A model generated the notes under the pieces. The model worked only from the letters and a program-made list of their open reading frames with translations. It was not told the origin of the DNA and did not search any database. Positions 2,921 to 41,570 of a DNA stretch of 64,000 nucleotides are shown here, in pieces. The DNA is from Anthoceros angustus (lineage: Eukaryota > Plantae > Anthocerotophyta), in NCBI GenBank assembly GCA_010909165.1, contig MU008149.1, forward strand, positions 62,001-126,000. The letters are read 5' to 3'. How positions within the stretch are numbered: the first letter of the stretch is position 1; every line of letters begins with the position of its first letter. A program made the position numbers and the translations under genes.

Positions 2921-3358
2921 GGTCCCTTATACAAGACTGATGAAGTAACAAAGTCACATGCCCAAGATCTTTGATCTCCCTTGAAACAGGCTTAGGGAAT
3001 TGGAAATGGTGTTGAACACCATTTTCAATTCCACAGGTCATCGAGATCTCCATTTCCACCTCCAACATCACATTCCTTTCGAAGATCTGTACTGAGAGAT
3101 TCAAAGCCCACAGCGGCAGCATGTAATGCTAAAACCTTGCAGCACGCTTGTCAGAAGCTCCTTTACGCATAAATTAAAACCAAAGAGACTATTGTAACAG
3201 ATTTTAGCCATAAGCTTTATCCTTGAGCCACTCTAAACAGTCTGCTCACAAAGCCCGTTACCCTAATATGAGCATGTGCATTCGGCAACCCGTTTGCAAA
3301 ACATGAAGGTACAACAAATCACCCTTAACACACCACGCAGCACACAGTCATAGCCCCA

Positions 3359-3528
3359 TGTTTGGCCTCATCTAAGCCTTCTGACCCTTGCTGGTATTTA
3401 GATAGTGGAGCTACTTCCCACATTTGTTACAATAAAAATTCTTTTGAGTCTTATTCCTCAACTACAGGACACAAGTCTGTCCTCTTGGGTGATAACCACA
3501 ACCTTCCCATAGCTGGAGTAGGTCACGT
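3359..3528 (+). mobile_element. Copia protease fragment (sibling of the copy at 5403-5495)
   Basis: ASSKPSDPCWYLDSGATSHIC...VLLGDNHNLPIAGVGHV. The DNA is near-identical to 5403-5492 and is cut off by the LTR at 3529. Confidence 0.85.
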
Positions 3529-3825
3529 TGTTTTCAGATATCTTAAGAGCACCATGCATACGGGACTCATGTATAGGTATACACTTGGCATACAGAAACT
3601 TACCTTGAGCAAGCTATGATTCTCATCATGATATCAGAGCATCTTGCTCTTGATTCTTGTATATATTATTTGCTACTTGCATAGACATAAATCTCTTTAT
3701 GCATAATCTATTTTGAATTATCTAGCTACATGTATTGAGATGATGTTGCCTTCGGCAACATTCAAATTATATTTAATTGCATAAATATATGATGCACAAT
3801 TCGTGCATCCAATTTTTGCTAATTC

Positions 3826-4155
3826 ATGATGGATCGTTTAAATCCTGGTAGGCACATTCATTGGAGAGCTATCAAAGCTGCAAAGCAGAAGAAATCTTAA
3901 AAGGACCACCAAATCAAGTGCTTGAAGAAGGCAAATTCACACATTGACAAAATTGAAGAACTTTCTAAACAAGTCTATAATTTCATTGGTTCCATCTTGA
4001 TTAATTCAAATAATCAAGGACATTAAATCAAATTGGTCAAACGTAGATTACTTACGTATTTGACCACAGCTCAAGTTAAGTCTATTGAATTAGCATTACA
4101 ACATATTCCGATTTTAAGTGCTGGTCGTTCTACTCCTTGTTCTAACACCCTGTAG
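3826..4155 (+). pseudogene. Extra ORF between PBS and gag of Copia 1 (109 codons, two in-frame TAA stops)
   Basis: MMDRLNPGRHIHWRAIKAAKQKKS*...QGH*IKLVKRRLLTYLTTAQVKSIELALQHIPILSAG. Both stops are TAA, revertible to CAA. It shares a motif with the ORF at 40710-41354. Confidence 0.55.
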
Positions 4156-5690
4156 CCAATTATCACTTCAATCAGATCAGATATGAAACAACTATAATCT
4201 TTTGCTAAAGATAGATTAGGCTTACTAACAAGTGAAATCTGTGACCTTTGCAATTGTATTGACCAGTTGAATCTCCGAGTATCTGTTTCATTTTCCACAC
4301 GCGTACGACTTGGTCATGCTCTCTAGATTCACCTGCCATGGCTGGATAGGACGACGATGAGGATTAGCTTGATGAATAAATCAATCAAAACAAAGATAAG
4401 GAGAAAGAGAAGGACTCTCGAGAGTCAAAGCCAACTATATTTCAAAGCTATGGAGAACGTCAAAGAAAACGATAGATTCAATGGCAAGGACTATGACGTC
4501 TGGCGCCTTCGAATGAGAGGAGTTTTACGTAATAGAGTGTGTGGGATATTGTCAGTGGTACTGAAGAACGCCCAGTTTGGGGTATTGAAGGTAAACGTAC
4601 TAGGACACCAAGGACGAAAAGGCTCAAGACATCCTGATAAGTGGCCTCTCTCTAAATACGGTGAGGCAAATTAGCAAAGCAAACTCCTCCAAAGAAATGT
4701 GGGATCATCTTGCCCAACTGTATTCCTCTAACGATGTTATGAGTTTGATAACAGCACCTCGCAACTTCCATAATTTGAAAATGAAGGAATCAGACATCAT
4801 TGAATACCATTATAAATGTTTTCCGCTTGACAATATCTCAATTAGAAGCTGCATCCGGCAATAAACTCACTAAATTGAACTGTTTTGTTGCTCTCTTATC
4901 CTCCTTACCATCCTTCTATAGATGCTTTGTAACAACACAAAACGCTTTGTTAAGGACCGCTCAGAAAAATATGGGCAAATACGACTTCGACGGAATTGAC
5001 ATTAGTATCACCAAATTGATTGGAGCATTAATTCATGAGGACTCCAGTCGCCGACAAGATCCTCAATCCAGCAGACAACAGGTGATGTATACAGGCAGAG
5101 GTAGAGGGAGAGGTCGAAGCCGAGGCCGAGGTCGCGGTAGAGGATTCACTCTACGCTCTACCAATCCAACAAGAGAGTCTGCACCAAGTACAAATAATGC
5201 CACCCTTCTTATTACCTCTTTCACACATGCAAGAGGTAACAAGAAGGGTGGCATTATTTGTAATTGGTGCAGAATATCAAATCACATGGAAAAGGACTAC
5301 AGAAAGATTGAAGAAAAATGGGGAGCCTAGGAAAGAGGCTCCACCTGGAGTGCATGTTGTTGTCAAGAGACAATCTTCAGCAACACCATCGCTCTCACTG
5401 TATGTTTGGCCTCATCTAAGCCTTCTGACCCTTGCATGTATTTAGACAGTGTAGCTACCTCCCACATCTGTTACAACAAAAACTCTTTTGAGTTTAGTAG
5501 TACATACTCCCCAGAAAATGGTGTAGCAAAGAATAAAAATCTACGCCTTAAAGAGATCACTGGCTGCTTATTATCCCAAGCACATTTACCAAAAATTTAT
5601 TGGGTAGAAAGCTTTCCATTGATCATCTTCGATTTTTTCGATCTCCTGCTTATGTTTTCATACCTAAAGTACAATGTAAGATGTCAAATC

Positions 5691-6818
5691 CTAAGGCAGC
5701 CAAGTATACTTAGCTGCCTTAGGATCGAGGTAAGGTGCATACTGGACCTTGTGAAATCTGTCCTCCTCATCCTCATTGTCGTCCTCTTGCCGCTCTGATT
5801 CCTGAACACAAGCTGAAGCCAAGACCTCACCATCCCCCATTTGTGTTTGTCCCTTGGCGGATTTGGTTACGGGCCCTTGAGACTCCTGAACAAGATCTCC
5901 TCTGCCGCGCTTGGGTCCATCTCTCCCACCTCGTGTTGGCCTCGCCAAGCCATATGCGCCAGCACCAGAAAGTGCCAGGCGATTGCCTTGAAGTTTGTTC
6001 GCCTTAACCTGGCCACCGCGCTTAGCCCGTCCTCGATTCCCCCCCTTCCCTCCACCAGTACCTTGCAAACTACGGAATCCTCCATTTGCCCACTCATCCT
6101 TGTCACCATTGTCCTCTTGGACTTATACTTGCGTCCTAGACTTCTTCACCTTCACCCACTTACCTTTTAAGTTTTGATTTCGGCCCTAAGATCAAAGCAG
6201 CATGCTCCAAGTTCTTGTTTTTCACAACCATCACTAGGTGCGACAAAGCATTCCCTCCCAGTGTGGCCTCGACGGCTGCATCCCCGATGCAAAAAGGCTG
6301 CCGTTGCCAATGGCCTTGTCTCAATGTCCTTCTCGGTATGGCATTCTATCTTCTTGGCTTTTGGCATCTGCACCTATTCAATGGGTGCAGATTGCTAGTT
6401 GTGAAAAACAGGAGCTCTATAGCGAACAACATGAGCAAACAACAATACAGTCTCAAGAATGTAAAAGCCTCAGAGAAAGAACAATGCTCTCAGGCTGACA
6501 AACCCTTGACCTAGAACTAGCCTCTACCACGCCTGCTGAGGTGTCCTTCTTGCCTACATTATTTGTGCTCTTTGAATTGCAGTAGTGACCTAGTAGACCA
6601 GCGGCCACAAAGAGAGCCATATGCGGATAGAGTTGAAAGATGACGCGGTAGTCTCTCGCTTCGTGACGCAGTGCGCTGGCGGGGACGGAGATGAACTTGC
6701 GGGGCCCCTTCCAGTGCTTTTGCAGCCGCCTTGAGGCCCACATGTGTTTCCCGCGCATTCTCTCCAAGCAGACTCCCCGTTCTCCGCAGTACAGTATGAA
6801 CGCCTTATTTTGCTCCAT
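5691..6818 (-). pseudogene. Antisense accessory coding region in the 3' part of Copia 1, unknown function
   Basis: Consecutive minus-strand ORFs: 6818-6453 (MEQNKAFILYCGERG...), 6373-6167, and about 6160-5691 (G/R-rich, then acidic EDDNEDEED). An AT-rich stretch at 6820-6910 lies upstream. Confidence 0.45.
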
Positions 6819-6964
6819 TTTATTTTGTCTTGAATATTTACCGCATTTATAGCCTGCTCCTTGGGTTTCGATATTTGAATATTTAACCTAACTATAGTTA
6901 CAAAAAACCACAAGTTGTGAAACCCAAGGACAATTGGAAATGATCTGCTTGGAGTTCCGAATTC

Positions 6965-7123
6965 TCACTTTTATAAGCGGAAGCATACAAATGATTGTAA
7001 ATTCAACTAAAGAAAATAAACACAAAATTTTCTCATAAATGTTCATGGTGACTGTTCACCGATAACCCTAAGTTAATAAATAAATAATAACTGGTAGGTT
7101 AAACTACACTCTAATCTTTAACA
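6965..7123 (-). repeat. 3' LTR of Copia 2
   Basis: Direct repeat of 41412-41570. It begins TGTTAAAG on the minus strand and is adjacent to the PPT. Confidence 0.93.
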
Positions 7124-7423
7124 CTCCCACTTAACCTAAGCAGGTTATTAAAGAAATTACCAGTTTAATATAGGTAACTAGAGGTAGAACTATATCAAGT
7201 AGGTAGTAATAAATAGACGAAAAAACGGTTATGTACCGATGGGCATGCGGAAAGCCATGCCCATGTGGGGTTAGATGGGGAGGGGGTAGGGAGAGTGGGG
7301 AGGTGGGGAGGGTAGATGGCCACAAGGCCACACCTGTGCCCCCGCCTCACCAACCCCTTTCTCCTCTCTCCCCCTCTCTCCCTCGCCCGCTCCCCTTATC
7401 GCTTAAAAACCGGTGAACGGGCG

Positions 7424-8412
7424 ATGGAGGCTCAGCGCAAGCGACGACGGCCGAAACCATCAGCAAGGCGCGGAGGGGCAACTTACAGTAATGACAACAG
7501 TATATGTATAGTCGGGATCATGCTGATGAGTGTAGGAGGAAGAGCGCCTAGGGGAGCCTTATCTGAACATATCATAGACCTGGACACCGAGGCCAGCTCC
7601 GTGCAAGGAGGCGCCCCGAGAAATCTAGGCGCGACTTCATCTAGGCAGGGTGCTCTCCTCAATCCAGCGTTGCAGCCCGCCCAATCTGTGACAAGCCCTC
7701 ATCCTCGTGTGCGCGCTGAGGCAGAGGAGATCCCTGCGCCAAGAATTGCTGGTGTGTGCAAGGGCATGCCTGAGATGTTGCTCATCTGTTCTTCAATTAA
7801 TCTGCAGTTACAAAATTGGTGAGATTGAGCTGAAGGCGAAGATTTGAGCTTGGGCATGATCCTCTATCAGTTACCAGCTTAACATCCTCATGCTTGCCGT
7901 CCATGCCTTATTGCAGATACCAACAAGAGAGGCAATGGTTCCTTAGCTCCAACACCAACGGTTCCTCGACCTGTATGCTACCTTCCAAATTATCCTCCTA
8001 GATCACCCCCGACAATTGGACCACATACACTCTTCGTAGAGGTCCTATGCGTTTTGACCCTAGACGTGACCCATATGTGAGGTACAAGCAAAGACACTTT
8101 GAGGAGGACAGGGAGAAGATTCAAGGAGTCATAAGGAGGCGTATTGCCCGCTTAGAACAAGACATCCAGGACCTTCACACTTTGGACGATCAGTGGGAAG
8201 AGTGGGTGGTGCCACAAACACAAGAAGAATCATCTGAAGGTAAAAAAGCAAATCTGATTCCTAAAAACTACCTGATTAGTTTTTGCACTAGCTTTTAGTT
8301 TCTATCACTAAGACTAGAAGTTGTCAGTTCACGCTTAGATTATGAACATGATGCTTCATCCACTGAGCTGAGGTTTTGTGCAGAAACGATGACCAGAAAA
8401 ACTCTGTACTAA
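7424..8412 (+). CDS. Putative 3-exon antisense gene inside the Copia 2 3' region (exons about 7424-7751, 7917-8239, 8384-8412; one frameshift near 8045)
   Basis: MEAQRKRRRPKP... with G|GTGTG...TTGCAG| and GAAG|GTAAAA...TTTTGTGCAG| phase-1 introns that keep the frame. It has a Pro-rich middle and a coiled-coil-like EEDREKIQGVIRRRIARLEQDIQDL, and ends ETMTRKTLY*. Confidence 0.5.
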
Positions 8413-8616
8413 CCATAGGTGCCTTAAAATGTGTTAACAGACTCAGGAGAAGGCAGCTAGCAGGCTAAGAAGTTAACGGCTAGTATGTCTTCAGTCTGAA
8501 ATCTATAAACTAAGAGGCCACACTGATGGCTGTAGTACCAGGCTGCTAGTTAAAAATGGAACTCCCTAAGGCCTAGTGCCTCTAGGTACGTAAAATGCTT
8601 AATCTTAGGAAGAGCC

Positions 8617-10271
8617 TTAGTTAAAATATCGACTCATGGAGCACCCGACGAGCTTTTCCTCCACTCTGGGGAATATAAGTCGAGCCTCATCCAGGTGAAA
8701 GCGTTTTAGAATCTCTTTGATATATTTGGTTTGATGGAGGATAATATGACCAGCAGCTCTATGGCGCAAAATCTGTATGCCCAAACAGAACTGAAGATCA
8801 CCTTGATCCGTTATCTTAAATTCGGCACGAAGCATAGTCTTCACCTTCTCAAGTTGGACAGTACTTCTGCTAAGAAGCACACAGTCTTCCACATACAAAG
8901 CCAGAATCACAAAGGGACTACCCTGGAGGAGGTAAAAAACATTGCTATCTGCTGGGGATTGGAGAAATCCTAACTTTTTAAGATATTTTACAATGTTTTT
9001 AACGCTTATACCAGGCCCTGGGGCTCTGCTTTAAGCCGTATAGTCTCTTGAGAAGCTTACACACTTTCTTAGCAAATTTTCTGTTGATAAAGCCCTATGG
9101 CTGCTACATGTACAGAACCTCCTCTAACTCTACATGCAGGAAAGCTGTACAAACATCCATCTGATGGACTTCAAGGTCATATTAGTGACCATGGCTAGCG
9201 ACATGTCTGAACCTCCTCTAACTCTACATGCAGGAAAGCTGTACAAACATCCATCTGATGGACTTCAAGGTCATATTCAGCAGCCATGGCTAGCAGCATA
9301 CGTACAGACGAGGGCTTAACTACTGGAGAAAAAGTATCCCCATAGTCTATGCCAGGTATTTGACTAAACCCCCTAGCAACTAGCCTTGATTTGTATCTGG
9401 CCACAGTCCCATCAGCCTTCAGCTTAGTCTTAAACACCCATTTATAGCTGATTGGCTTTCTTCCAAGTGGAAGGTCAACTAGCTCCCAGGTGTGATTCTT
9501 CAGGAGAGAGTTGTACTCATCGTCAATAGAAGCCCGCCAATGGTGTCCATTTCGTCCATTTATAACTTCACCATAGGACTGAGAATCAGGCCTAACATTA
9601 GGTACATGTCGACTGGGGCATGGTGAATCTGAAATCAGCGATTGGTGGGTGGCTCAACCCTTGTTCACGGGCGGCGTACATGGGATACCTTGGCACAGGC
9701 TCCTCATGGCGTGGTGAAGGGAGTCCATCACCAGCAAATGAAAAATCTGGAAAATCCCCAACATTGTCATGGTCAGAATCAGCTGGTGGCTCCACACGGT
9801 GAGCCATGTCTTCCTGTATGTCCATCAAGTCTGGATTGTCCTTATCTCCTTGCTGAGAACTCGCTGCAGACTCTAATCTTCCAGATTCACCATCAGAAGG
9901 TGGATACTCGGCAAGATCGAGGTCGGTATGGTAGCGTCCGCCTACACTTGATATCTCATTGACAAGCCAGACCAAGAAAGCATGCTTCTAGTCATCCCCA
10001 TCAAGGTCTGATTTTCCTCTCAGCCACTCCATTTTGCTGAGGTGTGTTGGGAACTTTGAGTTGCCCACTAATCCCAGTTTGTTGAAATAGATCGTCGTAT
10101 TTATGCCCTAGAAATTCCCCTCCATTATCAGTCCTAAGACATTTGACCAGCTTGCCTGTTTGTCGTTGGACCAGGGGAATCCAAGCAGTAATCTTATCAA
10201 AAGCTTTACTTTTCGACCTCAAAGGGAAAGTCCAGGTGCATCAAAAGAAGTCATCTGTAAGGGTCAGATAA
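8617..10271 (-). pseudogene. Copia 2 integrase core and reverse transcriptase (degenerate; RNase H missing)
   Basis: Integrase motifs LTLTDDF, KCLRTDNGGEF and PQQNGVAER. RT motifs RYKSRLVARGFSQIPGIDY, HQMDVCTAFL, LYGLKQSPRAW and LALYVED. A direct duplication of about 90 bp lies at 9116-9292. Confidence 0.9.
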
Positions 10272-10668
10272 CCCTACTAGAAAGAGCAGCCTATTTTACA
10301 GTCATTGTTGCAATTTTATGTTACACTTCCATATTGCAACATCCTTTGGAGGCTTGGTATAAAGTTGGTCACTTTCTTTCCCATGTGGTGCCACCATCTT
10401 AACACGAACCTGGCTCTCTCTCCTACCACCTCACCTTCATAATTACACCCCCTCTGTCACAAGCATTGTTTATGATTTCCCACATGCAATTCCAACATGA
10501 TTGTAATAAGGAGCCCCCTCTCTCTCCCCTATCATCCTCCCCTCTTTATTACACCCCCTTTGGAGAACTATTTGTTTATGTTTCACCTTGCCCTCTTCAT
10601 TACACCCTCTCTTGAAACAATTTGTTTATGTCGCCCACACCAAAACATCATTGTAACATGGACTAGCG

Positions 10669-10917
10669 ACTCTCACATTTTTCACCCACCTCATAACTTC
10701 ACCATTGCTTTATCAATGTTTTTACTTGACCATAGCTATTCATGGGTTGAAGACTATTTTTTTTTGTTTCAACAAGTCCTACAATGATAATAGACTCTCA
10801 CATTTTTCACCCACCTCATAACTTCACCATTGCTTTATCAATGTTTTTACTTGACCATAGCTATTCATGCGTTGAAGACTATTTTTTTTTGTTTCAACAA
10901 GTCCTACAGTGATAATA
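10669..10917. repeat. Tandem duplication, 2 x about 125 bp, within element A
   Basis: GACTCTCACATTTTTCACCCACC...CAAGTCCTACA(A/G)TGATAATA occurs twice. Confidence 0.9.
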
Positions 10918-13900
10918 AATGTGCACCCTTACACTGTGCACTTATATCCATGAATATTAATATAATAGATATAATTATATAAATATATTGATTATTTTAT
11001 TTTATATTAAGGTACACATTACTTATTCATTCATGGATGATTTATTGAGGTGAAAGAACGATGGAAAGAGACCATCTAGGAGGGGAAAACAAATGGGGAC
11101 CGGGGTCGGAGTGAAGAGGAGCAACCCAGCTCCCTACCTAAAGTGACCATTGCACCCACAATGTCAGTGCGAGTGAGAATAATGACTTGCAAACCACGGA
11201 GGAAGAGGAAAAGGCATCACCACCGTCGGTACATGCCTTGGAGAATCGCCGTTGAGCGCCCGTTGAAGAGCAATAGAAACCAGCCGGAAGTATCGCGGGA
11301 AATCTGAGAGGGACAGCCACACTATGCTCAGCGCATGGTAAGCTTTGGCACAAGACTTGGCAATTTGTCAAAGTCCTCAACCATTGCCCCATACGTTTCT
11401 AGAGCAAGCGGGATAAAGAGGTGGCCGCTTGCATCCAGCTATACTTGCGGACCTTGAGAGTCACTTTGCTGCAGGAAGCAGCACAGATGGTTGGTGATGA
11501 CAGGCGGAGGTGGCGTCGCGTCTGAGAGGTCAAGATAACCTACATCCGCCACCACACACAGTCGCCACGGACAAGCCCTACTAGAAAAGGCAGCCTATTT
11601 TATCATTGTTGCAATTTCATGTTACACTTCCATATTGCAACATGCTTTTAGGCTTGGTATTAAGATTGACACTATTTTCTTCTCTCATGTCACCATCTTA
11701 ACATGGACATGGCTCTCTCTCTCATCACCTCGTCCTCCTAAGTACAACCTCCCTCTCGCTAGCATTGTTTATGATTTGAAACATATACAATGAAAACTTA
11801 CTTGTGTTATAGTCCTTGTTGCAATTTCATGTAACACTTTCCATGTGGAACACTCAAAAAGTTAGGTGGCTTGGTGTTAAGTTTGTGATTCTCTCCTCCA
11901 CATTCTCTCACCATCTTAACAACATGCAAGTGGTCTCGACCTTACACCGCCATTAAGAGCTTATCATGAAGTTTGTTGGTTTGGTGTTAAGTTTGTGACC
12001 TTCTTCTCCACTTTCTCTTACCATCTTAACAACATGCTCTGGTCTCTCCTTTCACATCACACTCTAGTTAATGCTCGATGACACCCATTTCTTTATTGTT
12101 TCCCTCTTTGTGTTGCAATATGTTTGTGACAATGAGCTCCCCTCCCACCAGATTTTATTCTTCCCTCTTGCTTCTCATATATGGCATGTCATTCTCTTTC
12201 CATCTTACCTCCTTTGCATAGCCATGCATTTATGGTTAATGTACCTTCCCTCTTCAATGCACCCTTGTGTCCACACCTGGTTTTGTTTTCAAGCCCCATG
12301 TACAGTGAAACCCTTGCTATAACCTAACCATGTATAGTAGGATTCTACATTATTTATATGTCTATCTATATATACGGTTGGCAGGACTTGTTATGTGTAA
12401 TCCTATATATGTGGTAAATATATATATATGTATATAATGAATACATACTCTTTATGTATAGGTACAAATTCATAGATATCTACCCATGGCATAGTTATAA
12501 GTATACACCTCCTACATTAATTTGTACCTCATCATATTTACCACCAAATGCGACACATGCATTCGTTTCTTCAAACGCCCCTTTGTGCGTTTTCCCAATC
12601 TAGACTTCCCAATCCGGACTTCGCTTCTTTTTACGAACATGTGCGCAGACATATGCCATATTTTCGAGTTTCATTCCACACCTTGCTAAACTTATCGAAT
12701 GAGTAACGCTACGGAAATATGGAATGGACGATTGTGCCGGTGCTGCAAATCTCCTTCCTCATTCGTGACCACCGCCCGTCCTCGACAAAATAGCGAGCGT
12801 ACAAGTTCTGTTCGACCACAAGCACTCCACCTCCACCAACCACGTACTGCGATGGCGGTTTGGATGCCCCTTGATGCGCTTGCCCGTGCGTGTTGCGTTT
12901 GCTCCAAGCTGCACACCGGAAGGTAGGGCGCATCAATATCTACGGCGTCCACAACTCAATCCAGCTTATTGCGGACATGGACTTGCACATACCACGATGG
13001 CGGCGGCAACCTCTGACTCTTGGCGTCATCGAGTCGACTCCTCCTGCATCTTCAACGCGTCGTTTGCGGACCCTTTTGGCCTAGCACCTCCCGCCGTTTT
13101 CCGCTAGTGTACCCTGTGCGGCGGCATTCGAGCCACTGACCTCCACGCTCAAGCCTTGCACTCCGGCCCCATAGGCTGCATAACCACCGTGCACTATGTT
13201 ACGTTAGGCAAAAGGACCGCATTTAATTCATCCAAGTCATTGCCACCAAACTCACACTTTTGAGAGATCTTGTGATTCTTCTTGTGGGTGGGCACTCACA
13301 CCTCCACCTTCCACACCATCCCCACGCCTCCGACATCACTTGAGTGTGATGCCCTCCTCGTTCCACCTTCCCTTCCCTTCCCCTCGGGACATGCTATGGT
13401 TCCTTCCATCTTTTCGTGCCCTTCACCGCACATTATTCCTTCTCCTTGACACCTGCCATGCACACGCATCGATTCTGTTCACGCCTTCATGTCCTACATG
13501 CGCACTTTTGTCCCCATTGCAATTCCACCAAGGCCCCGATCTATCGCCACCACTCCGGTAGTTGCATGCTCTCCAATCCATGTTTCGCAGCCCATTTCAA
13601 CTCTCTCATTGCTCCTCCCCACCGTTGAACATACCTTCTCTCGAACTCTTTTGCTCCCATGGGACCAAATGGATTGGTCCCATGCTCGTGCTTTGCAAGT
13701 CGAGTGAGTTCTTGTTGTGGGGTTGGCCACACACCGTGCTTGTGCGTCACCACCGCTTGCTCCACAGCCGTCTCCATGCCTCTTGGCGTTCGGAGGGTGG
13801 AGCCATTTCGCATCTTTCCCTTCTCCTCCAAATAAGCGCACTTGTCGCACCTTCTTGCCAACGCGTTGTGGTTTCTTGTCCATGAAGCCCCGCAAACCTA

Positions 13901-30000: not shown

Positions 30001-30250
30001 CGGCGACATTGAAGAGGCGCCCGTTCTACGGGCACATAGAGCAAATACTCCGCTGCAGTTCTCGCAGGAGTATCAATTTTGTTGAAGGTTAGATGAGTGC
30101 AGTGTCGGCCGGGAGGGACAAGGCCATCGAGGATTTGACATTGTAAACACGGAGAAAGTTTGCGTCTGGTGCGCTCAATCGATGGTCCGTTTGTGTGGCC
30201 ATCGCGGTGAATCGATGCATCGCATCCGGAGGCGATGGATGGTAACATAG
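24090..30250 (+). pseudogene. CACTA Tnp2/TnpD transposase, fragmented and present as overlapping tandem copies
   Basis: MYCPCRRC, YEKIHAC...CPKCG, IPRKVL, FGDEPRNLRLALSTGGFNPF, PLVDELEEL, VYVGSRRWLP, APYVLSK...IKLPTGYGSNI, LKCHDWHIMLE, RWMYP.ERYL and FYGHIEQI. These are the Transposase_21 and DUF4218/DUF4216-type motifs. Confidence 0.88.
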
Positions 30251-33200
30251 GGTGGCCATCGGTACCACGCCGAGGATGGAGGATGAGGAGGCGGGGAGGG
30301 AGGCATGGCGCGTGGCGGGTGGCCTAGGACGTCGAGGAGGGGCAACCTCCCGAAGTGAGCAAAGTAACCAACGTCTGCGCAAAACAACGTTGTCTTTAGT
30401 GGCGATTCGAGATGAAGGCGATGATTATCGGCATCAAGCATTGATGTGCGCTTCGGACTGCGCCCAATATGGGCAATATACTACATCTTTGTCGATGGCG
30501 TATGTGATTACGGTGGCGAGTGTGAGTGAGGACGTTGATCTCCGTGAAACAATAAATGTGACGGCCTACTTTGCAAACAAAGGCTTTCCATATGAAGAGC
30601 TTTGAATTTTGCGAGGGGCGACCATTGGCTTGGCAACTCGGGGAAGGGGCAAGCCAATGCCTTGACATGGGGCGATGGTGCCCGCGAGCAGGGCAATGGG
30701 CGAGGGCGCGGAACGGAGTTTGGAGACATCGTATACCGCTAGAGCACCACCATCGGCGGGCGTCGGCGCGTCGCCGACGCGCGCCGACGTCCGTGGTGGG
30801 TGGGGAGGATGAGAGGGCAAGCTCGGATCGGGCTATCTCGGTCATCCACCCGCACCCACTCCGATCCGAGGCAGCGCGCGCAAGAGCCACCTCGTCCACA
30901 AAGGGACACGAGAGTTGTGGGGAGAGTGGAAAATGGCAGACCAATGGCGGTTGAGGACATGACGTGGAACATCCGGCCCCGAGGCGGACTTGGAGCATTG
31001 CGTCCGTGGTTCAACGAAGTGGACGATGATGTTTTGCTGTCAAATGAGGTGGGTGGTTCGAGACTAGATTGACAACGTGTTGCCGTAGACACGTTGATGC
31101 AATTTGTTTGCGGACGTTGCGGTGCACCTTGGCATCTTGGTTCATGCAGGAGGACATATGGAGGCAGCCCATGGCAACACGGGAGGTGGTTGGCGACGAG
31201 GCACGGCGAAAGTGGGCGGGCGGCAACCCGTGTGGGGCGGGGGAGCCGGCGCGCCCGCGCCTGGATGAGGAATGGCGGCGATTCGAAGGGGAATGACAAG
31301 GGGAGGAGGCGGTGTGCACCGGCGGATGGATGGAGTGGTTTGTGAGGTGGACAACGATGCACGGTGACGCCTTGATAAAAAGGCATGGCGTGAAATGGTG
31401 AAGGAGGCAATGCAAAAACAAAGGACGAGGAGGAAGGAATCCGATGTTGTTCGGGGTCTCGAGCAAAGAACTGAAAGTGAGGACAAAGGTTGTGAATGAA
31501 CTGGGGTACATGGCAAGATGGCGCGACGTTCCGAGAGGGGAGAAGGCACGGTTAGTGAAATCGGTGTCGGAAGCCTTCCCCGACCTGGTGGTAAAGTCCA
31601 GCATAAGCCGACACTTCTCGCAGATGACTCGCACGCGCAATTCTCGTTGTGTGGAGGCCGCAAAGGCAGCGGCATTAGAGGAAAGGGAGCAGGAGGGGGG
31701 AGGAGCGGGTAAGAAGCCGAGCATGGTGGACGAGGAGAGTGGAAAATGGCGGTACCAATGGCGGTTGAGGACATGGAGCGTGGAACATCCGGCAGGCGGA
31801 CTTGGAGCATTGCGTCCGTGGTTCGAAGTGGATGATGATGTTTCTCAAATGAGGTGGGTGGTTCGAGACTAGATTGAAGAGCGTGTTCGATGTAGACACG
31901 TTGATGCAATTTGTTTCGCGTTGCGGTGCACCTTGGCATGGCGTTGTTCATGCGGGGAGGACATATGGAGGCAGCCCATGGCACGGGAGGTGGTGGCGGC
32001 TGCGAGGCAGCGAAAAGGCGTGGGCGGGCGGCAACCCGTGTGGGGCGGGGCCGGACTGCCGCGCCAAGCTGGATGAGGAATGGCGGCGACAATTCCGGGG
32101 AGGTGTGTGACAAGCGGGAGGCGGTGTGCTGGATCTTGATGGAGTGGTTTGTGAGGTGGACAACGATGCACGGTGGCGACCTTGATAAAAAGGCATGGCG
32201 TGAAATGGTGAAGGAGGCCTTGCAAAAACAAAGGACGAGGAGGAAGGGAATCCGATGTTGTTGGTCTAGGCAAGAAGCAAACTGCTGGAGTGAGGACAAA
32301 GGTTGTGAATGAGCAAGATGGCGCGACGTTAGAGGGAAAAAACGGTTAGTGAAATCGGTGTCGACGCCTTCCCGACCTGGTGGTAAAGTCCAGCATAAGC
32401 CGACACTTCTCGCATGACTCGCACGCGCAATTCTCGATGTGGAAGGCGCAAAGCGGCATTAGAGGAAAGGGACCGGAGGGAGGCGGGGAAGAAGCCGAGC
32501 ATGGTGGACGAGGAAGAGTGGGAAGATGCCTTGCACAGGCGCGGATTGAAGAGAAACGGAAGTTTGAGCCATCAAGTATGAACTTGCTAAGAGGTGGCCA
32601 AAACGGTGGATGGGGCCAAACCCTTGGGGAAAGGGAGGCGTCTGGATGGGTGGTTCGGTTTGAGAAGAAGCATGGTAGGTACCCAAGAGGAGGCAATATG
32701 GAGGCGAGGACGATCTCCATGCAACCTCTGTGGGGCGGTTCGCGATAAGGGCGGTTGTGGGTTCCTACAGGGTAAGACATGGAATACATGAAAACACCCG
32801 AGGTTCGAGGCTATTGCCGGAGAACAAGGGAAATGACTATTTTGTTGAATGACATGGAATTGGAGATGGATCCAGATCGGTGGCATTTAGACGAAGGATG
32901 GAAGGCAGGGCCGCCCGCTGCAGGAGGTGGTGGTGTGGATGTGGAGGGATAAGTAGGAGGACGGAGGAGTAGAATGCATTGGGGAGAGGAGGAGACAAAA
33001 ACAGATGGAAGGGAGGCGGGCTTGGTGAACCATGAAGGTGGGATGGTGCGGGTGGAAACAGTGCAGGCGGGAGGCTATCACGAGCAATGACATCGTGGTG
33101 CCGGCGACACGATCACCCGATGGTGATGGACCATGCATGCACGGTGATAGTGTGAATGAAGAGTGTGAGAAGATGTGTAGGAGAGGCGGCCACGTGCGGA

Positions 33201-35520
33201 CTCGGGTGGGGGTGCCGTCACCATCAAGTTGCCATGGCTAGTGGGAAGGGGAGGTGATGACAAGGGAGAGGAGGCGGTGTGCAGTGGATCGATGGAGTGG
33301 TTTGTGAGGTGGACAACGATGCACGGTGACCTTGATAAAAAGGCATGGCGTGAAATGGTGAAGGAGGCAATGCAAAAACAAAGGGCGAGGAGGAAGGGAA
33401 TCCGATGTTGTTCGGGGTCGAGAAGCTAGGCCTGAAAACTGTGAGGACAAAGGTTGTGAATGACGGGAACATGGCAAGATGGCGCGGCGTTAGAGAGAAG
33501 GCAGTTAGTGAAATCGGTGTCGGCCTTCCCGACACAGTGGTAAAGTCCGGCATAAGCCGACACTTCTCGAGATGACTCGCCGCGCAACTCGTTGTGTGGA
33601 GGCGCAAAGCGGCATTAGAGGAAAGGGAGAGGAGGAGGCGGGGAAGAAGCCGAGCATGGTGGACGAGGAGTGGGAAGATGCCTTGCACAGGCTCGGATGG
33701 ATGAAAGCAGGAAGTTTGAGCCATCAAGTATGAACTTGCTAAGAGGTGGCCAAAAGCGGTGGGATGGGGCCAAACCCTTGGGGAAAGGGAGGCGTGGATG
33801 GGTGCTTCGGTTTGAGAAGAAGCATGGTAGGTACCCAACCGAGGAATATGGGAGGTGAGGGATCTCCATGCAACCTCTGTGGCGGTTCGCGATAAGGGCG
33901 GTCTGCGGAGTTCATACGGGTAAGACATGGAATACATGAAAACACCCGAGGTTCGAGGCTATTAGGAGGACAAGGGAGATGACTATTTTGTTGAATGACA
34001 TGGAATTGGAGATGGATCCGGATCGGTGGCATTTAGGGGCGAAGGATGGAAGGCAGGCGCCACGGTGGGGAGGTGGTGGTGTGGATGGAGGGATAACTAG
34101 GAGGACGGTAGAATGCATTGGGGAGAGGAGAGACACTAGAGAATGGAGGGAGGCGGGCTTGGTGAACCATGAAGGTGGGATGGTGGTGGAAGCAGTGTCG
34201 GGCGGGAGGCTATCACGAGCAATGACATCGTGGTGCGACGACACCACGATCACCGATGGTGATGGACCATGCATGCACGGTGATAGTGTGAATGAAGAGT
34301 GTGAGAAGATGTAGGGAGAGGCGGCCACGTGCGGACACGGGTGGGGGTGCCGTCACCATCAAGTTGCCATGGCCGTGGGAAGAGGAGGACTTGGAATCAC
34401 CGTAGTGGCGGTTCACGAAGGAGGGTGTGTCAAGAGGGCAGCCTGGTAAAGGCGTGTGTTGGGAGGTGCCGTCATCGCCTAGTGACGGCGCACATTGTGG
34501 ACGGAGTTGGGGTCGAGGAGTGACGAGTGAAGACATGAGGGATGGAATTGGAGGCGGATGCTTACGGGAGAGGCAATTGTGTCGTCACCAAGGAACATGC
34601 ATGGGTCAGCGTGGGCTGCGAACAAATGGGGTGGGAGAGGGAGGGTGCCGTCATCGCCTAGTGACGGCGCACATTGTGGACGGAGTTGGGGTCGAGGAGG
34701 GAGGCGCGTGGCAGCCATGAGGGATGGAATTGGAGATGGATGCGATGGAAAGGGAGGCGTGTCGTCACCAAGGAACATGCATGGGTCAGCGTGGGCTGCG
34801 AACAAAGCAGGGGTGGGAGTGGGAGGAGGGGGTGCGGATCGAGGAGAGGTCCGCGAAGCCATGGTCGTGGTGGGGGCCAAAAGGCGCGTGGCAGCCATGA
34901 GGGTCGAGGGAGGGAGAAAGAGGCGGCAAAGGGGTACATGATGGCGCGTGCGAAGACAACGATGCGAGATGATGAGGCGGACGACATTGAGGCGTGCCTA
35001 ACCGTGCGGACACATACAGCACTCCGTGAAAGCATGGACCTCCACAGTGGGCCCCATTGGAGGCTCGCCACAGTGACAAAGGTGGAGGCCGAAGAGGAAA
35101 GCGGGGAGGTGCGGTGGAGGCATCGAGGGCCGTGTGACGAGGCGGGCAGCCACGGAAAGAGGAAGCGGGGAGGTGCGGTGGAGGCATCGGCGGGGCCGTG
35201 TGACGAGGCGGGCAGCCACAGTGAAGAGCGAGGATGGAAGGAGGCGGTCTGGGCAAGAGGTACATAAGAAACGGATGCGTCGGGAAGGTAAGCAATTGAA
35301 GGTCGTTGTGCACACCTATATCTGGACATGTCTTGAAGGGCATGCTGCGATGTATGTACCGTGGTGCGTGCGGAGGAAGGGAGATGGATGCGATGGAAAG
35401 GGAAAGGCGGTCGTGAATGACGCAAGAGGAAGGGAGGAAGAAAATCGCAAAGCAGGGGTTGTAGGAGGTTTCCTTCTCATGCATACGATGAGGAGTAGGA
35501 AATTAGAAATGATGAAGGGC
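30250..35520 (+). pseudogene. Second CACTA ORF (TnpA/Ptta-like) remnants, duplicated
   Basis: Lies downstream of Tnp2 on the same strand. It has repeated segments KKAWREMVKEAMQKQR, RLVKSVSEAFPDLVVK and LLRGG...RFEKKHGRYP.EE. The assignment rests mainly on position and the last motif. Confidence 0.5.
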
Positions 35521-38500
35521 CATGTATGGAGCCAAAGAACCCAGCGCATAGCAAAATCATAGTAAGGACAAACTAGTAAATCGATAAGAAGGGTGAGCCA
35601 TGGCAAGAAGCCGATGGGCATGGGGACAAGCCGCACATCGCCCGCTAGAGAAGGTAGGTTCGCGACAGGATACACAAAAATAATAGGCTGGGTGAAATGT
35701 GGGATGTATGTATCCGGGTTTTCGAATGATGAATACAAAGTATAGTATCCTGGACGTGTACAATTTATGTACGTTATCAGTGTGACGTATAATTGTGTTT
35801 TATACAAAATGAAATATAACCGTATGTCACATGAAATTATCGTATGTGGCATATCACCAATACCAGTATTCTACAAAACATGTATGCGTACATGTATTTA
35901 TTTATATGTATTCATACGAGGTAATAAGGGAAACCAAGTATTCCATATGGTAAATGTAGTAAAGGAGGAAGGTAGATGGGGAGGAGGTTCGGTACCAAGC
36001 CTCCAAAAGTGTTACAAGACTTTTCTTGTAACACTTTATATGTTGCAACCTGTTGCAATCTTGAGAGAGGACAAAAGCGCCTCTCACTTCATCTCAACAA
36101 AATTGCAACACACTTGCAACATGGTTGCAACAAACACTCGGTTTGGTTTCCAAGCCAAAGTGTAACAAGCGGCCCAAAAAGTGTTACATGACCCCAAAAT
36201 TGCAACATAAGTGTTACATCCAGGGGTCCAAATCTTAACATAAAGTGTAACATAGGCTGCCTTTTCTAGTAGGGAAGGTATAGGTCCGCCCTGATTGAAC
36301 GACCTATAAGAAGAGTATACTCCCGCTCCCTCCAGGCCATATAGCCACTTTCGCGAGCAATGGCAAACATGACATCAGGGATGGCGTCGTGAGTGGCAAT
36401 GCGATGACCCCGTGGACAGCGAGCAAGGTGGACACGAGGCGTCAAGAGTGCACTCACAAGTGAGGAGGCGAAGAAGCCACTGCAGTGGAGTAGGTGAGAC
36501 GGAATCGCATCGCGATGGTGAAGGTGGTTGGTGCGATGTGAAATCCCCGTATGCATGGGCGGGCCAGTAGCCAAGCACCTGCTCCCTTCCCAGAACAAGA
36601 GCGGAGCCGCGCTCTAGTGGACCTAGAGATGCCTGCAATCCCCTAAAGCCATCAGTGATAAATGTAGAGAAAGGAGGGAAGTCCTTCCAAGCATCTGCTG
36701 ATAACATATCTCTGGCCTGTCTCAAGGACGATTGGAGAGAGAAGGTTCCCTCCTCCACACTTGATACGAGATCCTCGAGAAAGGGCTTGTCATGGAGGAT
36801 GAAACGGGAAGCCAAGGCGAGGCGAGAGAGGGCCCAACTCCCCAAGAAGCCATAGGGAAGAGACCTCCGATGGCGATCCTCGCCTCCAAATTGCTGACGG
36901 GGATATGCCTTTGAAGATGCTGAGGGACACTCAAAAGCCCCAGGCCAGGATGTCCCCAAGAGTATCCATAATCTTCGTATCAAACCCGGGCGGGACAAAG
37001 GGCCGGGAGGCGGAGGCGGAGGCGGAGGCGAAAGCAGAGAAGGAAAGGATTCCAAAGGCCACCCGAGCATCCTCCGGCAAAGGAGGTCCCCAATATGGGA
37101 GAGGTCCTCTACAAGGGCCTTGTCCAGAAGCCCCAATGAAGTCGGGGAACCAAGGGACCCCAAGAATCCATGAGACCAAGGCGGAGGCAATCTCCCTACG
37201 GTAGGCTGAGTGGGGATCACGGGGACTGGGCGGCGACACTTGGACATCTTGACCTTCAAGCCCACCAACAAAAGCTCGGAGAATATCTCAAAGGCCTCCT
37301 TGACTTTGTCCCAGGGCAGGGGATGTGGGATAATGCCTATCGAAGGGAAGACTGTTCAGCATGGAGGCGGCCTAGATAGGGCCCTATGGTGAGCAATAGC
37401 GAAGAGACTAGCCAGCGGAGCCTTACCGGTACTGTGGGTTCAAGGCGGAGGCGAAACTGAGAAGAGACGTTCTTGTCTTGGTAGTAGAGGTTGGAGGACC
37501 TCCATAGAAACCTGGGACAAAGGGTATAAGACTCCCAGGGCCTTGACATCCCTAAGCTCCTCAAGATGGCCGCTCAAGGAAATTGAAGGCGTTCTCGACA
37601 TCCACACAGCAAGACTACCCAATCCGGGTGGGTATCAAGGCAAGCTTTCACCCCTAGCACCTGGGACTCGCGGTCCGGGTGGCAATGCCAAATTGAAGGG
37701 GTTGAAGTCTTCTTTGGAGAAGGAAGCCTTTGAGGCGATAGTCGGTGAGTGGCGCTAACTCATCCAGGGATCGGCGCAGGCGATCTAGGGGAAGGCGAAA
37801 TGCCGACGGGCATCATCGTGAAGGTCTTGGGGAAGCCTGCGGAAGATCTTGGCGGACATGGAAAGCGGGTTTCGAACATCCCAAGGATGTGATCCAGCTG
37901 ACTCCGCAACCATTCCCAGGAAGAAAGAGGCACCACAAGGAGAAAGCTATTGTGCGCCGGAGCCGGGACAGCGGACGTGGAGGAGGAGCTTATTCATTTT
38001 AGCCACCAGCATAACTTCTAGTCCTTGTCTTACCCAAGCACTCCAATGCAACTTCTATCCCTTGCCCCTAACCAAGTACTCCTATTTGCATTCCATAATA
38101 TTATGTTAGACTATATAATATCACATTTTATGCCATAATATTATGTTATATTTTATAATTTTTAGTATTAATTACATATGATATTAAGGTATAAATTACT
38201 TTATCAATCGGGCCATCAATGCCGAACGTTAAATTCAATATTCGAGTAGATCGAGATCAAACCCTAAACTTCCTAGTTCTAAGAAATATGCCTTGACCAA
38301 TCCACTATATTCTATTTTAGTTGGAGCATTAAGATCTCGGGATTTATTTGTAAGAAATACCTAGATGTATTATTATTTGCCTATGTCTAGGTTCTGGGTG
38401 CCGGCCTCACTCTCCGTTCGGAGGACAGATTTTCCCTCCTTCCCTGCAGCCCGCACGACGGTGGGCACTCCCGGTAATCAGAACTAGTTCTCGTGGGCGC

Positions 38501-38612
38501 AAACACGAGAAGAGCGGCGATGGCGAGGGCCATGGTTGGCGGGAGCGAAGCGGCAAACTGCCTCGCTTCCCTCCCGCTCACTCTTAAGGCAGACGGGGCA
38601 AGACAAACCATA

Positions 38613-40355
38613 TAATACCAGGCGCCACCCAAGAAAGCCACTTGCAGCTTGCCAGCAATATTAGCATGTATAAGCTCAAGTACCTCAGTGGCCCTAGTAG
38701 CATCTTTGTTCTTGAATGGTAATTCCTTCTACTTGGACAGAATGCAGGATTTGCAAGCAGGAAGGTCCTTAAATTGTGCTGGAAGTTTCTCTTTATAATA
38801 GTCTAGGGAAGACATCATGCTGAGCTTTGCCTTGTTAATATGTCCAAGGCGTGCATGCCAAAGTTCAGCAACTGATTTTGCAGATGTAGCTAATGTAACT
38901 TGCTGATTATTGGACAGCACTTGTAGTTGGTACAGCTCATTGACAAGCACTCCCCTTGCTATGCACAGATCAAGGCTGGACATCCTATACGAGCAGCAAC
39001 TGTCTGACTCAAATCTGAATCCAAACAAGGCTGATTGTGTAAGGGCTCTAATAGAGAGCAAGTTCTTAGACATTCCAGGAACATAAAGGACATCCAGCAA
39101 CTGTAACTGAGCCCCATCAGCAAGAGGTATGTTCACTGTTCCACTCCCCTTGACTCCAACTCCACGAGAATCCCCCACATAAACCTCTTGTTTCTCCCTT
39201 TGATTTTTGAAGGTTGTGAACAAGTGCCTATTGTTACAGGCATGGGCTGTTGCCCTAGAGTCTATGAACCAGAGTGGTGAGATCTCCCTAAATGAAGTAA
39301 AGCAGACTATGAGAACAGAAGAACCACTCTTGTATACGGGTTGAGAAGAGGATGATCCCTTAGAGGCGACGTTCGCAATAGGTTTGGAATCCTTCCTTGG
39401 TTCTCCAACCTTCTTCTTGCGACAATCCCACTCCCAGTGACCAGGGATCTGACACCAATTGAAGGTACCATCGCGTTTGGTAGCATCTAGAGCAGCCGAA
39501 GATGGATTTCTCTTCTTCTTCCCCTCCTCTTTCCCCTGCCCAAATGTTTTTCCCTTTGTTGCAAGCAGAACTTTATCAGTACGCACCCTTGCGGTGCCAC
39601 CAGATCTTGTTCGACTTTGCTCCTCTTGATGGAGAGCTCCAATGAGCTCTTTGAGGTTAAAGGTTGGTGTTTTCCCAGACTTCACTGCTGAAACAAATAC
39701 TCGTAACGAAGAATTTTGACTTGAAATGAATTGCTGATAGGAGTAAGGTGAGCAACGACGTCAATTTCATCCAGCTTGCTACCAAGCATAGTAATTCTTG
39801 CCTTCAAACAGCAAACTTGCTTATATGTGCTCCAATGTTGTCCCCTTCTCTCATTCTCAGCCCATAGTATTCATTTCGAGCGACAACCAATGTTAGTATA
39901 TTCTGAACTTGATATGTGTCCTTCAACTGTGTCCAAATGTCCGTCGCTGTAGGGAGGAATTCCACCTCCGTCACGGTGGCTTCATCTAGTCCGAACAGCA
40001 AGATGGTGAAGGCAATTTTATTGCCTTTATTGAATTTGGCAATCTCATTAGGTAAGGCTCCTGGGCCTGGTTTAGAAATTGAGCCATCCAAAAATTCCCA
40101 GACGTCCCTAGCATCTAGAAAAGCTTTCATTCTTGCTCTCCAACTCTCATACCTAGCTGATTTACCATCAAACCTGTCTTTTTCCTTGAATTCTCCACCA
40201 TTGCTGCCACCAGCAGATGTAGCCATGCTGACCTGTACTTGTGGAACAGGAGGAGTGTAAGAAGGAAATTGCATGGCTAGGGAAGACAGAAAATCAGCCT
40301 CAGTATCCTCGTCCTCGTCAATATCAGTATTTTGTCTCCACCAGAAGGCAGACAT
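38613..40355 (-). pseudogene. Copia 2 gag-protease-pre-integrase region
   Basis: gag EKDRFDGKSARYESWRARMKAFL; knuckle FNWCQIPGHWEWDC; protease WFIDSRATAH; LWHARLGH...CKSCILSK; ELIHANIAG. Confidence 0.92.
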
Positions 40356-40709
40356 GAGATTGATGCCAAACTAAGAGGTAACCTAAGAAGGGTATGAAGG
40401 ACTGCTAGGAGAGGAACTGAAGGCTAGTTGGATGCGAAGGGGCACTAACAAGTGAGCTATGAAAAGGTACTAACTAACACCGTTTCATATTTTATTTTTA
40501 GGGTTTCCAGGAAAAGAGAACTTGAAGGTTGTGAGAAAGGCCAACTGGCAAAGGCTATTAGGGCACCTTTCCAGGTGGCTCTCCTCATCAACCGCCACAA
40601 GATCCCGTGATGCCTCTGGGTAGCCAGCAGCAAGTGACTGCAGAATCAGGTAAAATTATGCATCCAAACGCTGAAATTCTGGCTGGAGGCTCTACTATCC
40701 TAGTAGAAA

Positions 40710-41252
40710 TCACAGCACTACACCCTTGAGCGCCTTACTTTGTCTTAGTTTGAGGGTGGGGCAATAGAGTGCAGCATTTGGGTCTCTTGCAGAGAAAACA
40801 GAAGATCCTGAAATGTTCAGTTGTTCTAGGGAGACAGCCAATTCATCAACGGTGGCCTTGATTCCTTGGAGTCTTCTCAGCACTAGGGTAATTTTTCCAG
40901 CCAATTGCGTGGAGACTGACATTAGCAGATTTTCTGTGGATTGAAGGCGAGAATTTAAGAGCTGTCCAGCACGTGCATGCTTGAAAAACTCCAGATTCAG
41001 GTCTTCTCCTCTCTGCTGATTGTGAACTCTTGAACGATGGATGCAGGGATGCGGACGAGGAGACACACCACGAGAGTCCCTTGACTGAGATTTTTGAACT
41101 GGTGATCTCCTTTTGTGCCTGGAGCTCGGCACTTGCTTTAGTGTCCGATGCCTGAGGAATTTTCTGTCCAATTCTGCTTGAGCTTTGAGATGGTCAGCAG
41201 CATCAGCAACATAAAGCAGATCCTCACTTCGATGCCTTGACCTCCATGTCAT
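40710..41252 (-). CDS. Extra ORF between PBS and gag of Copia 2 (about 180 aa from MTWRSRHRS; basic N-terminus, coiled-coil-like C-terminus)
   Basis: Uninterrupted frame 41354-40710. It has an R/K/S-rich N-half and a heptad-like LAGKITLVLRRLQGIKATVDELAVSLEQLNI, in the same position as the 3826-4155 ORF in Copia 1. Confidence 0.6.
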   Translation of the reverse strand: MTWRSRHRSEDLLYVADAADHLKAQAELDRKFLRHRTLKQVPSSRHKRRSPVQKSQSRDSRGVSPRPHPCIHRSRVHNQQRGEDLNLEFFKHARAGQLLNSRLQSTENLLMSVSTQLAGKITLVLRRLQGIKATVDELAVSLEQLNISGSSVFSARDPNAALYCPTLKLRQSKALKGVVL

Positions 41253-41411
41253 TGTTGTTCTGCTTGTCACATTTCGATTAGAGCAAGCAAAAATATTGTA
41301 GTGGTAGAGACCATGAGGTCCTAGGATCCATTTAATTCTGGAGTGTAGATACAATCATATTGATCTAGCACAAGACACATAAATTAGGCACCTAAGTGCT
41401 TTGATACCATA

Positions 41412-41570
41412 TCACTTTTATAAGCGGAAGCATACAAATGATTGTAAATTCAACTAAATAAAATAAACAAAAAATTGTCTTATAAATGTTCATGGTGACA
41501 GTTCACCGATAACCCTTAGTTAATAAATAAATAATAACTGGTAGGTTAAACTACACTCTAATCTTTAACA
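41412..41570 (-). repeat. 5' LTR of Copia 2
   Basis: Direct repeat of 6965-7123, with the PBS 2 nt downstream on the minus strand. Confidence 0.93.

What the first reader, a model, noticed from the sequence alone, without database searches (positions are those of the whole stretch)
3529..41570. Copia lineage with a three-part layout: 5' coiled-coil ORF, gag-pol, and a 3' antisense gene
Seen: two diverged but related short-LTR Copia elements (gag ENDRFNGK vs EKDRFDGK; KLIGALIHEDSSR vs ELIGALHQEEQSR). Both have an extra sense ORF between PBS and gag (3826-4155; 41252-40710) sharing the motif G..I.LV.RRL...EL..., and both have antisense coding sequence in the 3' region (5691-6818; 7424-8412). 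Known: typical Copia elements have only gag-pol. Sirevirus env-like ORFs are 3' and sense, while 5' and antisense extra ORFs are mainly described in Gypsy (Ogre, Retand/Tat). Inference: this is a lineage-wide accessory system, such as anti-silencing, RNP assembly or transmission, rather than random capture.
Basis: partly seen in the sequence, partly recalled or inferred. Interest (0 to 1): 0.8.

Follow-up and report, generated by a model that had tools for sequence, protein, structure and literature searches.

The report
Dead Copia with two extra genes
One broken plant Copia retrotransposon carries an intact extra reading frame before gag, predicted to form a long helix, and the likely remains of a gene on the opposite strand near its end, a layout mostly described in Gypsy elements; the second element is too damaged to show that this is lineage-wide.

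Summary
Partly confirmed. Element B is one Copia on the minus strand (LTRs 41412-41570 and 6965-7123, 96% identical), split in its integrase by a 28-kb nested insert. Between its LTRs lie an open 180-codon ORF before gag (0 of 1000 block shuffles; predicted helix at residues 76-149 after a basic linker) and a decayed antisense coding stretch after pol (168 codons, 9-12 of 1000). Element A is a deleted relative (gag 26-28% identical): no LTR pair, no RT core, and its 5' 'ORF' has two stops. Reading A's frame further gives a borderline 48-residue match to B's helix (15 of 1000 ungapped, 214 of 5000 gapped). A's antisense stretch looks coding but does not align with B's and is not shown to belong to A. 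No relatives of the extra proteins were found, and no genome was available for copy-level tests. Best reading: a Copia family with two accessory genes, resembling Tekay/Ogre 5' ORFs and Retand antisense genes. 'Lineage-wide system' remains untested. New variant of a known kind; interest 0.42.

The parts
41412..41570 (-). B 5' LTR (starts TGTTAAAG; the exact 3' end is uncertain by 1-2 bases and is not the usual CA)
   Evidence: 159-nt match to 6965-7123, 6 differences, K2P 0.039
41398..41409 (-). B primer-binding site, tRNA-Met type with one mismatch (reference motif recalled)
40710..41252 (-). B 5' extra ORF, 180 aa, intact: N-terminal helix, basic disordered linker (40-75), long predicted helix with heptads (76-149)
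38613..40355 (-). B gag (with acidic N-terminal extension), protease and start of integrase; broken by stops and a frame change
   Evidence: Retrotran_gag_2 E 4.8e-15, Pol_BBD E 1.7e-23, gag_pre-integrs E 4.5e-12
10272..38612 (.). Nested insert of 28.3 kb inside B's integrase, flanked by TAA at 10269-10271 and 38613-38615; not part of B
8550..10271 (-). B integrase core, RT (with a 94-nt tandem duplication) and a likely RNase H tail; broken, with most of RNase H likely deleted
   Evidence: rve E 0.0038, below Pfam's cut-off; RVT_2 E 8.4e-35 and 2.4e-18; RNase H tail by recalled motif DILTKAL
7424..8412 (+). B 3' antisense coding relic: basic N-terminus MEAQRKRRRPK, then a charged helical-looking piece at 8002-8238; stops at 7820, 7826, 7880, 8296 and a frame change near 8000-8080
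7124..7132 (-). B polypurine tract AAGTGGGAG
6965..7123 (-). B 3' LTR; flank GAATT (6959-6963) matches AAATT (41571-41575) at 4 of 5
3329..3619 (+).
   Evidence: Pol_BBD E 8.1e-14, residues 22-74; 91% identical over 92 nt to 5402-5493; RT tail by recalled motif RYLK.T...GL.Y, no Pfam hit
3629..3640 (+). A primer-binding-site-like motif TGATATCAGAGC
3826..4326 (+). A 5' frame, 166 codons with 4 internal stops (3898, 4024, 4153, 4195); its last 55 codons are a possible relic of a B-like helix
4338..5620 (+). A gag, protease start and a short integrase-like remnant; broken and internally deleted
   Evidence: Retrotran_gag_2 E 2.7e-14
5691..6818 (-). Antisense coding relic beside A (TATAAA at 6851, ATG at 6818, hairpin at 5688-5725); membership in A not shown
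41571..42900 (+). DNA that continued from 6964 before B inserted; holds a further plus-strand coding-like block (42224-42598)
   Evidence: hairpin across the empty site, -15.3 vs -5.8 +/- 1.7 kcal/mol, 0 of 500 controls; codon z 5.0

Best explanation
Element B is a dead copy of a Copia retrotransposon whose two LTRs enclose an intact extra ORF before gag and a decayed antisense coding stretch after pol, and both are likely inherited accessory genes of its family. The 5' protein is predicted to be a basic linker followed by a coiled coil; it would be read from the element's own RNA ahead of gag, self-associate, bind that RNA and help assemble or route the particle. [quoted passage not shown] Element A is a deleted relative that likely keeps a relic of the same 5' gene; the antisense gene beside it is unrelated in sequence and may or may not be its own. 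Shown: B's anatomy, the open 5' frame, coding bias of both antisense stretches, A-B kinship in gag. Inferred: family-wide presence, expression, oligomer state and all function.
For: LTR pair, primer site, purine tract and a 3-base duplication at the integrase break make B one element. The 5' ORF is longer than all but one unbroken stretch of B's own gag-protease region (214 vs 343 and 138 codons) and beats every null. AlphaFold gives one helix at 76-149, pLDDT above 90 for 91-130, after a low-confidence linker with 10 K/R and 1 D/E in 36 residues; heptad score 3 of 1000 shuffles. B's 3' region is 1.4 kb with antisense strand bias and opens with RKRRRPK. B is 6262 nt without the insert, against means of 4752-5313 for Lyco, Ivana, Ale and Bryco. 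A contig of run X1 matches 41262-41493 (LTR end, primer site, leader to 10 nt before the ATG) with 3 changes and a 4-base gap; it may be an allele of this locus and not a second copy. In A, the best heptad window (131-158, 57 of 1000) falls on the 48-residue diagonal with B, and both gags are preceded by an acidic patch. Precedents: Tekay 5' ORFs are helical, disordered and conserved within a family (PMC11728184); Grande's antisense protein is nuclear and has its own promoter (PMC7264820).
Against: Only one copy of B was examined; no second copy of either extra ORF was seen. No relative of the 5' protein among 154 word-sharing candidates or 1.84 billion representatives; none for the one antisense piece searched, among longer proteins only. 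These blanks are weak, since B's own gag-protease found 1 relative among 2486 candidates. The A-B match was found after extending the frame, is borderline (214 of 5000 gapped; best of 9 frame pairs 185 of 500) and could come from heptad pattern alone. A's 5' frame shows no coding bias. B's antisense frames reach only z 2.9 and 2.2 against negative controls near 2, and its GC-rich core ranks 5th of 6 frames. Five upstream ATGs precede the 5' ORF. The target-site duplication is imperfect.
Confidence: 0.5

Rival explanations
1. Copy-specific passengers: one or both extra stretches in B are captured host-gene or transposon fragments that ride in this copy or a small subfamily without function, and the block beside A belongs to another mobile element.
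For: No homologs. The locus is heavily nested. A's antisense gene is joined, across B's insertion site, to another coding-like block, and contigs of run X1 match parts of that block and run on unlike it. Captured ORFs in few copies are a known category (PMC7264820).
Against: No terminal repeats around either stretch were seen in the self-comparisons. The 5' ORF stayed open while gag-pol decayed. Both related elements have a long leader and an antisense coding stretch in the same positions.
Confidence: 0.25
2. One reading: both extra genes are conserved, homologous parts of an old Copia lineage that includes A and B.
For: Same positional layout; similar 5' frame lengths (166 and 180 codons); 48-residue ungapped match, 15 of 1000; shared acidic patch before gag. 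At 26-28% gag identity fast-evolving accessory proteins would be hard to align; SIRE extra ORFs fall into 19 unalignable groups (PMC6317226).
Against: Antisense stretches unalignable (15 of 200). A lacks LTRs and RT core, so its 3' boundary is unknown. A's 5' frame has no coding signal.
Confidence: 0.18
3. The extra frames are chance products of long non-coding leader and trailer DNA.
For: True for A's 5' frame as tested. 8 of 154 comparison stretches have an open frame as long as B's antisense one.
Against: B's 5' frame: 0 of 1000 shuffles and 0 of 154 stretches, z 5.0 and heptads. A's antisense cover 2-3 of 1000.
Confidence: 0.07

Closest known systems
5' additional ORFs of Tekay (and Ogre) Ty3/Gypsy elements (PMC11728184 passages; PMC6317226 Additional file 5)
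   Same: Sense ORF between primer site and gag; predicted helices with disordered regions; no known domain.
   Different: B has Copia domain order; its ORF is 180 aa against about 400; no sequence similarity shown; family-wide conservation is shown for Tekay (500 of 523) and untested here.
3' antisense ORFs of Retand/Grande/RIRE2 and Ogre (PMC7264820; PMC11963269 passages)
   Same: Antisense coding stretch between pol and the 3' LTR; basic N-terminus fits a nuclear protein.
   Different: Gypsy elements; pol-to-LTR region 2.9-6.6 kb against 1.4 kb; no Transposase_28 or plant mobile domain hit here.
SIRE (Sirevirus) Copia with env-like 3' ORF (PMC6317226)
   Same: Copia with an extra ORF; tRNA-Met primer site.
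   Different: SIRE's ORF is 3' and sense (74%; antisense 1%) and elements average 9.9 kb; B's 3' sense strand has no frame over 71 codons.
Bianca and Ikeros Copia with rare extra ORFs (PMC6317226 Additional file 5)
   Same: Copia lineages where extra ORFs are listed (5 and 2%; 4 and 6%, read as the 5' sense and 5' antisense columns from the table layout).
   Different: A few percent of elements, 250 codons or more; Bianca uses a half-tRNA-Ile primer site; no 3' antisense gene listed.

Membership tests
Ty1/Copia (element B) | Order gag, protease, integrase, RT | tested here: met
   Pfam hits in that order on the minus strand; RVT_2 is the Copia-type RT model
Ty1/Copia (element B) | LTR pair with primer site and purine tract | tested here: met
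Ty1/Copia (element B) | 5-base target-site duplication | tested here: inconclusive
   4 of 5 match, depending on where the LTR ends
Ty1/Copia (element B) | RNase H after RT | tested here: inconclusive
   No Pfam hit; only a recalled tail motif
Full-length Ty1/Copia (element A) | LTR pair | tested here: not met
   No second copy of 3529-3628 in the window; 3529 lies in a protease-matching frame
Full-length Ty1/Copia (element A) | RT core | tested here: not met
   B's RT pieces match nothing else in the window
SIRE | Sense extra ORF after pol | tested here: not met
   Longest sense frame 71 codons, 977 of 1000 shuffles do as well
SIRE, Lyco, Ale, Ivana or another REXdb Copia lineage | Position in the RT/INT/RH tree | not testable with these tools
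   The reference sequence file could not be read; no labelled relatives were found
Lyco, Ale, Ivana, Bryco | Compact size of about 4.7-5.3 kb with no extra ORF of 250 codons or more | tested here: inconclusive
   B is 6262 nt: above the four means and the Lyco and Bryco ranges, inside the Ale and Ivana ranges; its intact ORF is under 250 codons
Bianca | Half-tRNA-Ile primer site | tested here: not met
   B's site is TGGTATCAAAGC, tRNA-Met type by recalled motif
Retand/Ogre/Tekay (Gypsy) | RT before integrase | tested here: not met
Retand-type antisense gene | Antisense coding stretch between pol and 3' LTR | tested here: met
   (element B; moderate strength)
Retand-type antisense gene | Transposase_28 domain | tested here: inconclusive
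   No Pfam hit at E up to 1 on broken pieces
Family-wide accessory ORF | Present and under purifying selection in most copies | not testable with these tools
   No genome held; no loci of close relatives found

The most novel reading that the evidence does not exclude
An undescribed plant Copia clade, old enough that its gag proteins share only about 27% identity, carries a conserved coiled-coil gene in front of gag and an independently promoted antisense gene behind pol, reaching the complex Ogre/Retand-like layout independently of Gypsy and missed by surveys with a 250-codon cut-off.
Probability: 0.25. Interest if true: 0.7.

Novelty: new variant of a known kind. Interest (0 to 1): 0.42.

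Why it matters
Extra genes of plant LTR retrotransposons have no established function, and outside SIRE they are scarce in Copia. A compact Copia with both a 5' and a 3' antisense gene would show that the complex Gypsy layout arose twice, and the intact 180-aa protein is small enough to test directly for localisation, oligomer state and RNA binding. As it stands the evidence is one dead copy plus one wreck, so the result is a lead.

Tried and rejected
Whole genome: none held, so no copy survey or dN/dS. Homolog searches: 5' protein, none; B antisense piece 8002-8238 among proteins of 140-2000 aa, none of 17 candidates; A antisense N-terminal piece in the Atlas, no usable hit, recognition 1920. 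The other antisense pieces went only to Pfam and PHROGs: nothing at E 0.01; A's 5' frame gave four sub-threshold helical hits at E 0.014-0.17. Loci of relatives: viral contigs 0 in three scans, prokaryote genomes 0, metagenomes 1 of 110 candidates, 27% identical and 1068 nt long, too short to show flanks. Folds: 5' protein against viral models, best E 0.53; A antisense piece modelled at mean pLDDT 52, best Z 3.5 and best E 0.94; these blanks exclude nothing. Complex prediction of two copies of residues 76-152: no answer, score 0.02, neither support nor evidence against. Sequencing runs: one holder, X1, DNA by guess, share 0.06; no RNA holder listed. Its contigs do not cover B's 5' ORF, RT or most of B's antisense stretch; a hole proves nothing. 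Introns: a rough splice-site scan (weights from general knowledge) found 2 candidates in B's antisense stretch (20 of 100 shuffles) but also 4-5 in control strands and a strong one inside the helicase exon, so no intron is claimed. PDB sequence search with RT: 0. A 21-residue match between A's 5' frame and the block at 42326-42388 (2 of 200, one of 10 comparisons) was set aside as likely helical bias. Host species not identified.
Full report
Anatomy of B. The only long repeat linking the two ends of the finding is a 159-nt direct repeat at 6965-7123 and 41412-41570, 96.2% identical. On the minus strand the copy at 41570 is followed by a primer site and the copy at 7123 is preceded by a purine tract. 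Gag, protease and the start of integrase lie at 40355-38613; integrase core and RT resume at 10271-8550. The break carries TAA on both sides. B is therefore one Copia of 6262 nt with a 28.3-kb nested insert. Its flanks form one hairpin when brought together (-15.3 against -5.8 +/- 1.7 kcal/mol, 0 of 500 controls), so 41571 onwards continues 6964. The target-site duplication matches at 4 of 5.

B's 5' ORF. 41252-40710 encodes 180 aa without a stop. The 214-codon open stretch is unmatched in 500 dinucleotide shuffles, 1000 block shuffles at each of two block sizes, and 154 overlapping comparison stretches. Codon score z 5.0, where negative controls gave about 2; it ranked 2nd of 6 frames overall and 1st over residues 76-150. 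The single-sequence model has a helix at 76-149, confident at 91-130, behind a basic low-confidence linker; pTM is 0.33. Heptad score 3 of 1000. It is in gag's frame but separated from it by a stretch with many stops, so it is a separate ORF. No homolog, family or fold was found.

B's 3' region. About 1.4 kb separate the end of pol from the purine tract. The antisense strand has a 168-codon open frame (9-12 of 1000) and the sense strand at most 71. Two pieces rank 1st of 6 frames at z 2.9 and 2.2; four smaller pieces, one of them the core of the first, do not. 8 of 154 comparison stretches reach 168 codons. I read this as a decayed gene with moderate support.

Element A. Its gag and protease are related to B's at 26-28% identity (0 of 300 shuffles). 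It is a wreck. The proposed LTR start at 3529 lies in an open frame that Pfam matches to protease up to about 3550 and that continues into a motif I recall as the Copia RT tail; no second copy exists in the window. The proposed 5' ORF has stops at 3898 and 4024 and no coding bias. Extending the frame to 4326, 11 nt before an ATG at 4338, gives 166 codons with 4 stops and a 48-residue ungapped match to B's helix: 15 of 1000 ungapped, 214 of 5000 gapped, 185 of 500 when all nine frame pairs compete. This was found after the fact and is only suggestive. After a short integrase-like remnant (score 28, 40 of 300) comes the antisense stretch 5691-6818, with a TATA box and good coding signal. It does not align with B's (15 of 200), and no 3' LTR of A was found beyond B's insertion site, where another coding-like block follows. 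Whether A owns this gene is open.

Other copies. No genome was held. B's gag-protease found one relative at 39% identity, P0002, without context. Run X1 has a contig matching B's LTR end and leader up to 10 nt before the ATG with 3 changes and a 4-base gap, and contigs matching 3698-3842 and 3889-4149 of A almost exactly; these may be alleles of this locus and are not independent support.

Mechanism. Shown: the layout and the coding signals. Inferred: the 5' ORF would be translated from the element's full-length RNA, with gag reached by reinitiation, an internal start or a second transcript; five upstream ATGs are a difficulty. A basic linker beside a coiled coil suggests an RNA-binding oligomer acting in particle assembly or transport; coiled-coil oligomers are predicted for other accessory transposon proteins (PMC13547354 passages). 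An anti-silencing role is not excluded, and nothing here tests it. The antisense gene would have its own promoter and a nuclear product, by analogy with Grande.

What is known. PMC6317226 (passages, section 10, Additional files 4 and 5; Additional files 1 and 3 could not be read and may list such elements): among Copia, extra ORFs of 250 codons or more mark SIRE and a few percent of Bianca and Ikeros. PMC7264820 (main text, parts 1-2 of 3), PMC11963269 and PMC4093653 (passages) place antisense ORFs in Gypsy lineages. PMC11728184 (passages) describes Tekay 5' ORFs and notes that elements occasionally have both types. PMC9033089, PMC5408684, PMC12786077 and PMC2774666 (passages) added no Copia case. 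Nine searches (listings and abstract starts) showed no Copia with this layout; the library lacks most subscription papers, and Steinbauerova 2011 was not read. Two unchecked earlier notes of this scan report antisense genes in fungal Copia, so that half is probably not unique.

Verdict. Observation partly confirmed; interpretation partly supported. New variant of a known kind. Best explanation 0.5; fully lineage-wide homologous system 0.18; the broader novel case 0.25, worth 0.7 if true. Interest 0.42.

Noticed in passing
window 11576-36274 and 44769-46337; also 10272: Elements with CCCTACTAG...CTAGTAGGG termini and 3-base duplications (AAG; AGT), CACTA-like by recall. The 24.7-kb one switches from C-rich to G-rich along its length, holds 0.3-1.5-kb repeats, and none of its long ORFs that I scanned hit Pfam. 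Unexplained.
   Followed up: partly
window 41870-42790, + strand: Coding-like block (z 5.0) with no Pfam or PHROGs hit, head to head with A's antisense gene once B is removed; contigs of run X1 match parts of it.
   Followed up: partly
window 2996-3032, 5173-5278, 5688-5725, 6366-6392, 42864-42893: Several near-perfect short inverted duplications in and around A; B itself inserted into one.
   Followed up: no
window 4338-4400 (+) and 40355-40270 (-): Both gags are preceded by a short acidic patch (DDDED; DEDED) 35-50 codons before the first gag motif; significance not tested.
   Followed up: partly
window 2-1690, + strand: 3' part of a DEAH helicase gene (PRP22-like by recall) as one 562-codon open frame.
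   Followed up: no
window 58306-59871, - strand: F-box/LRR host gene, 521-codon open frame.
   Followed up: no
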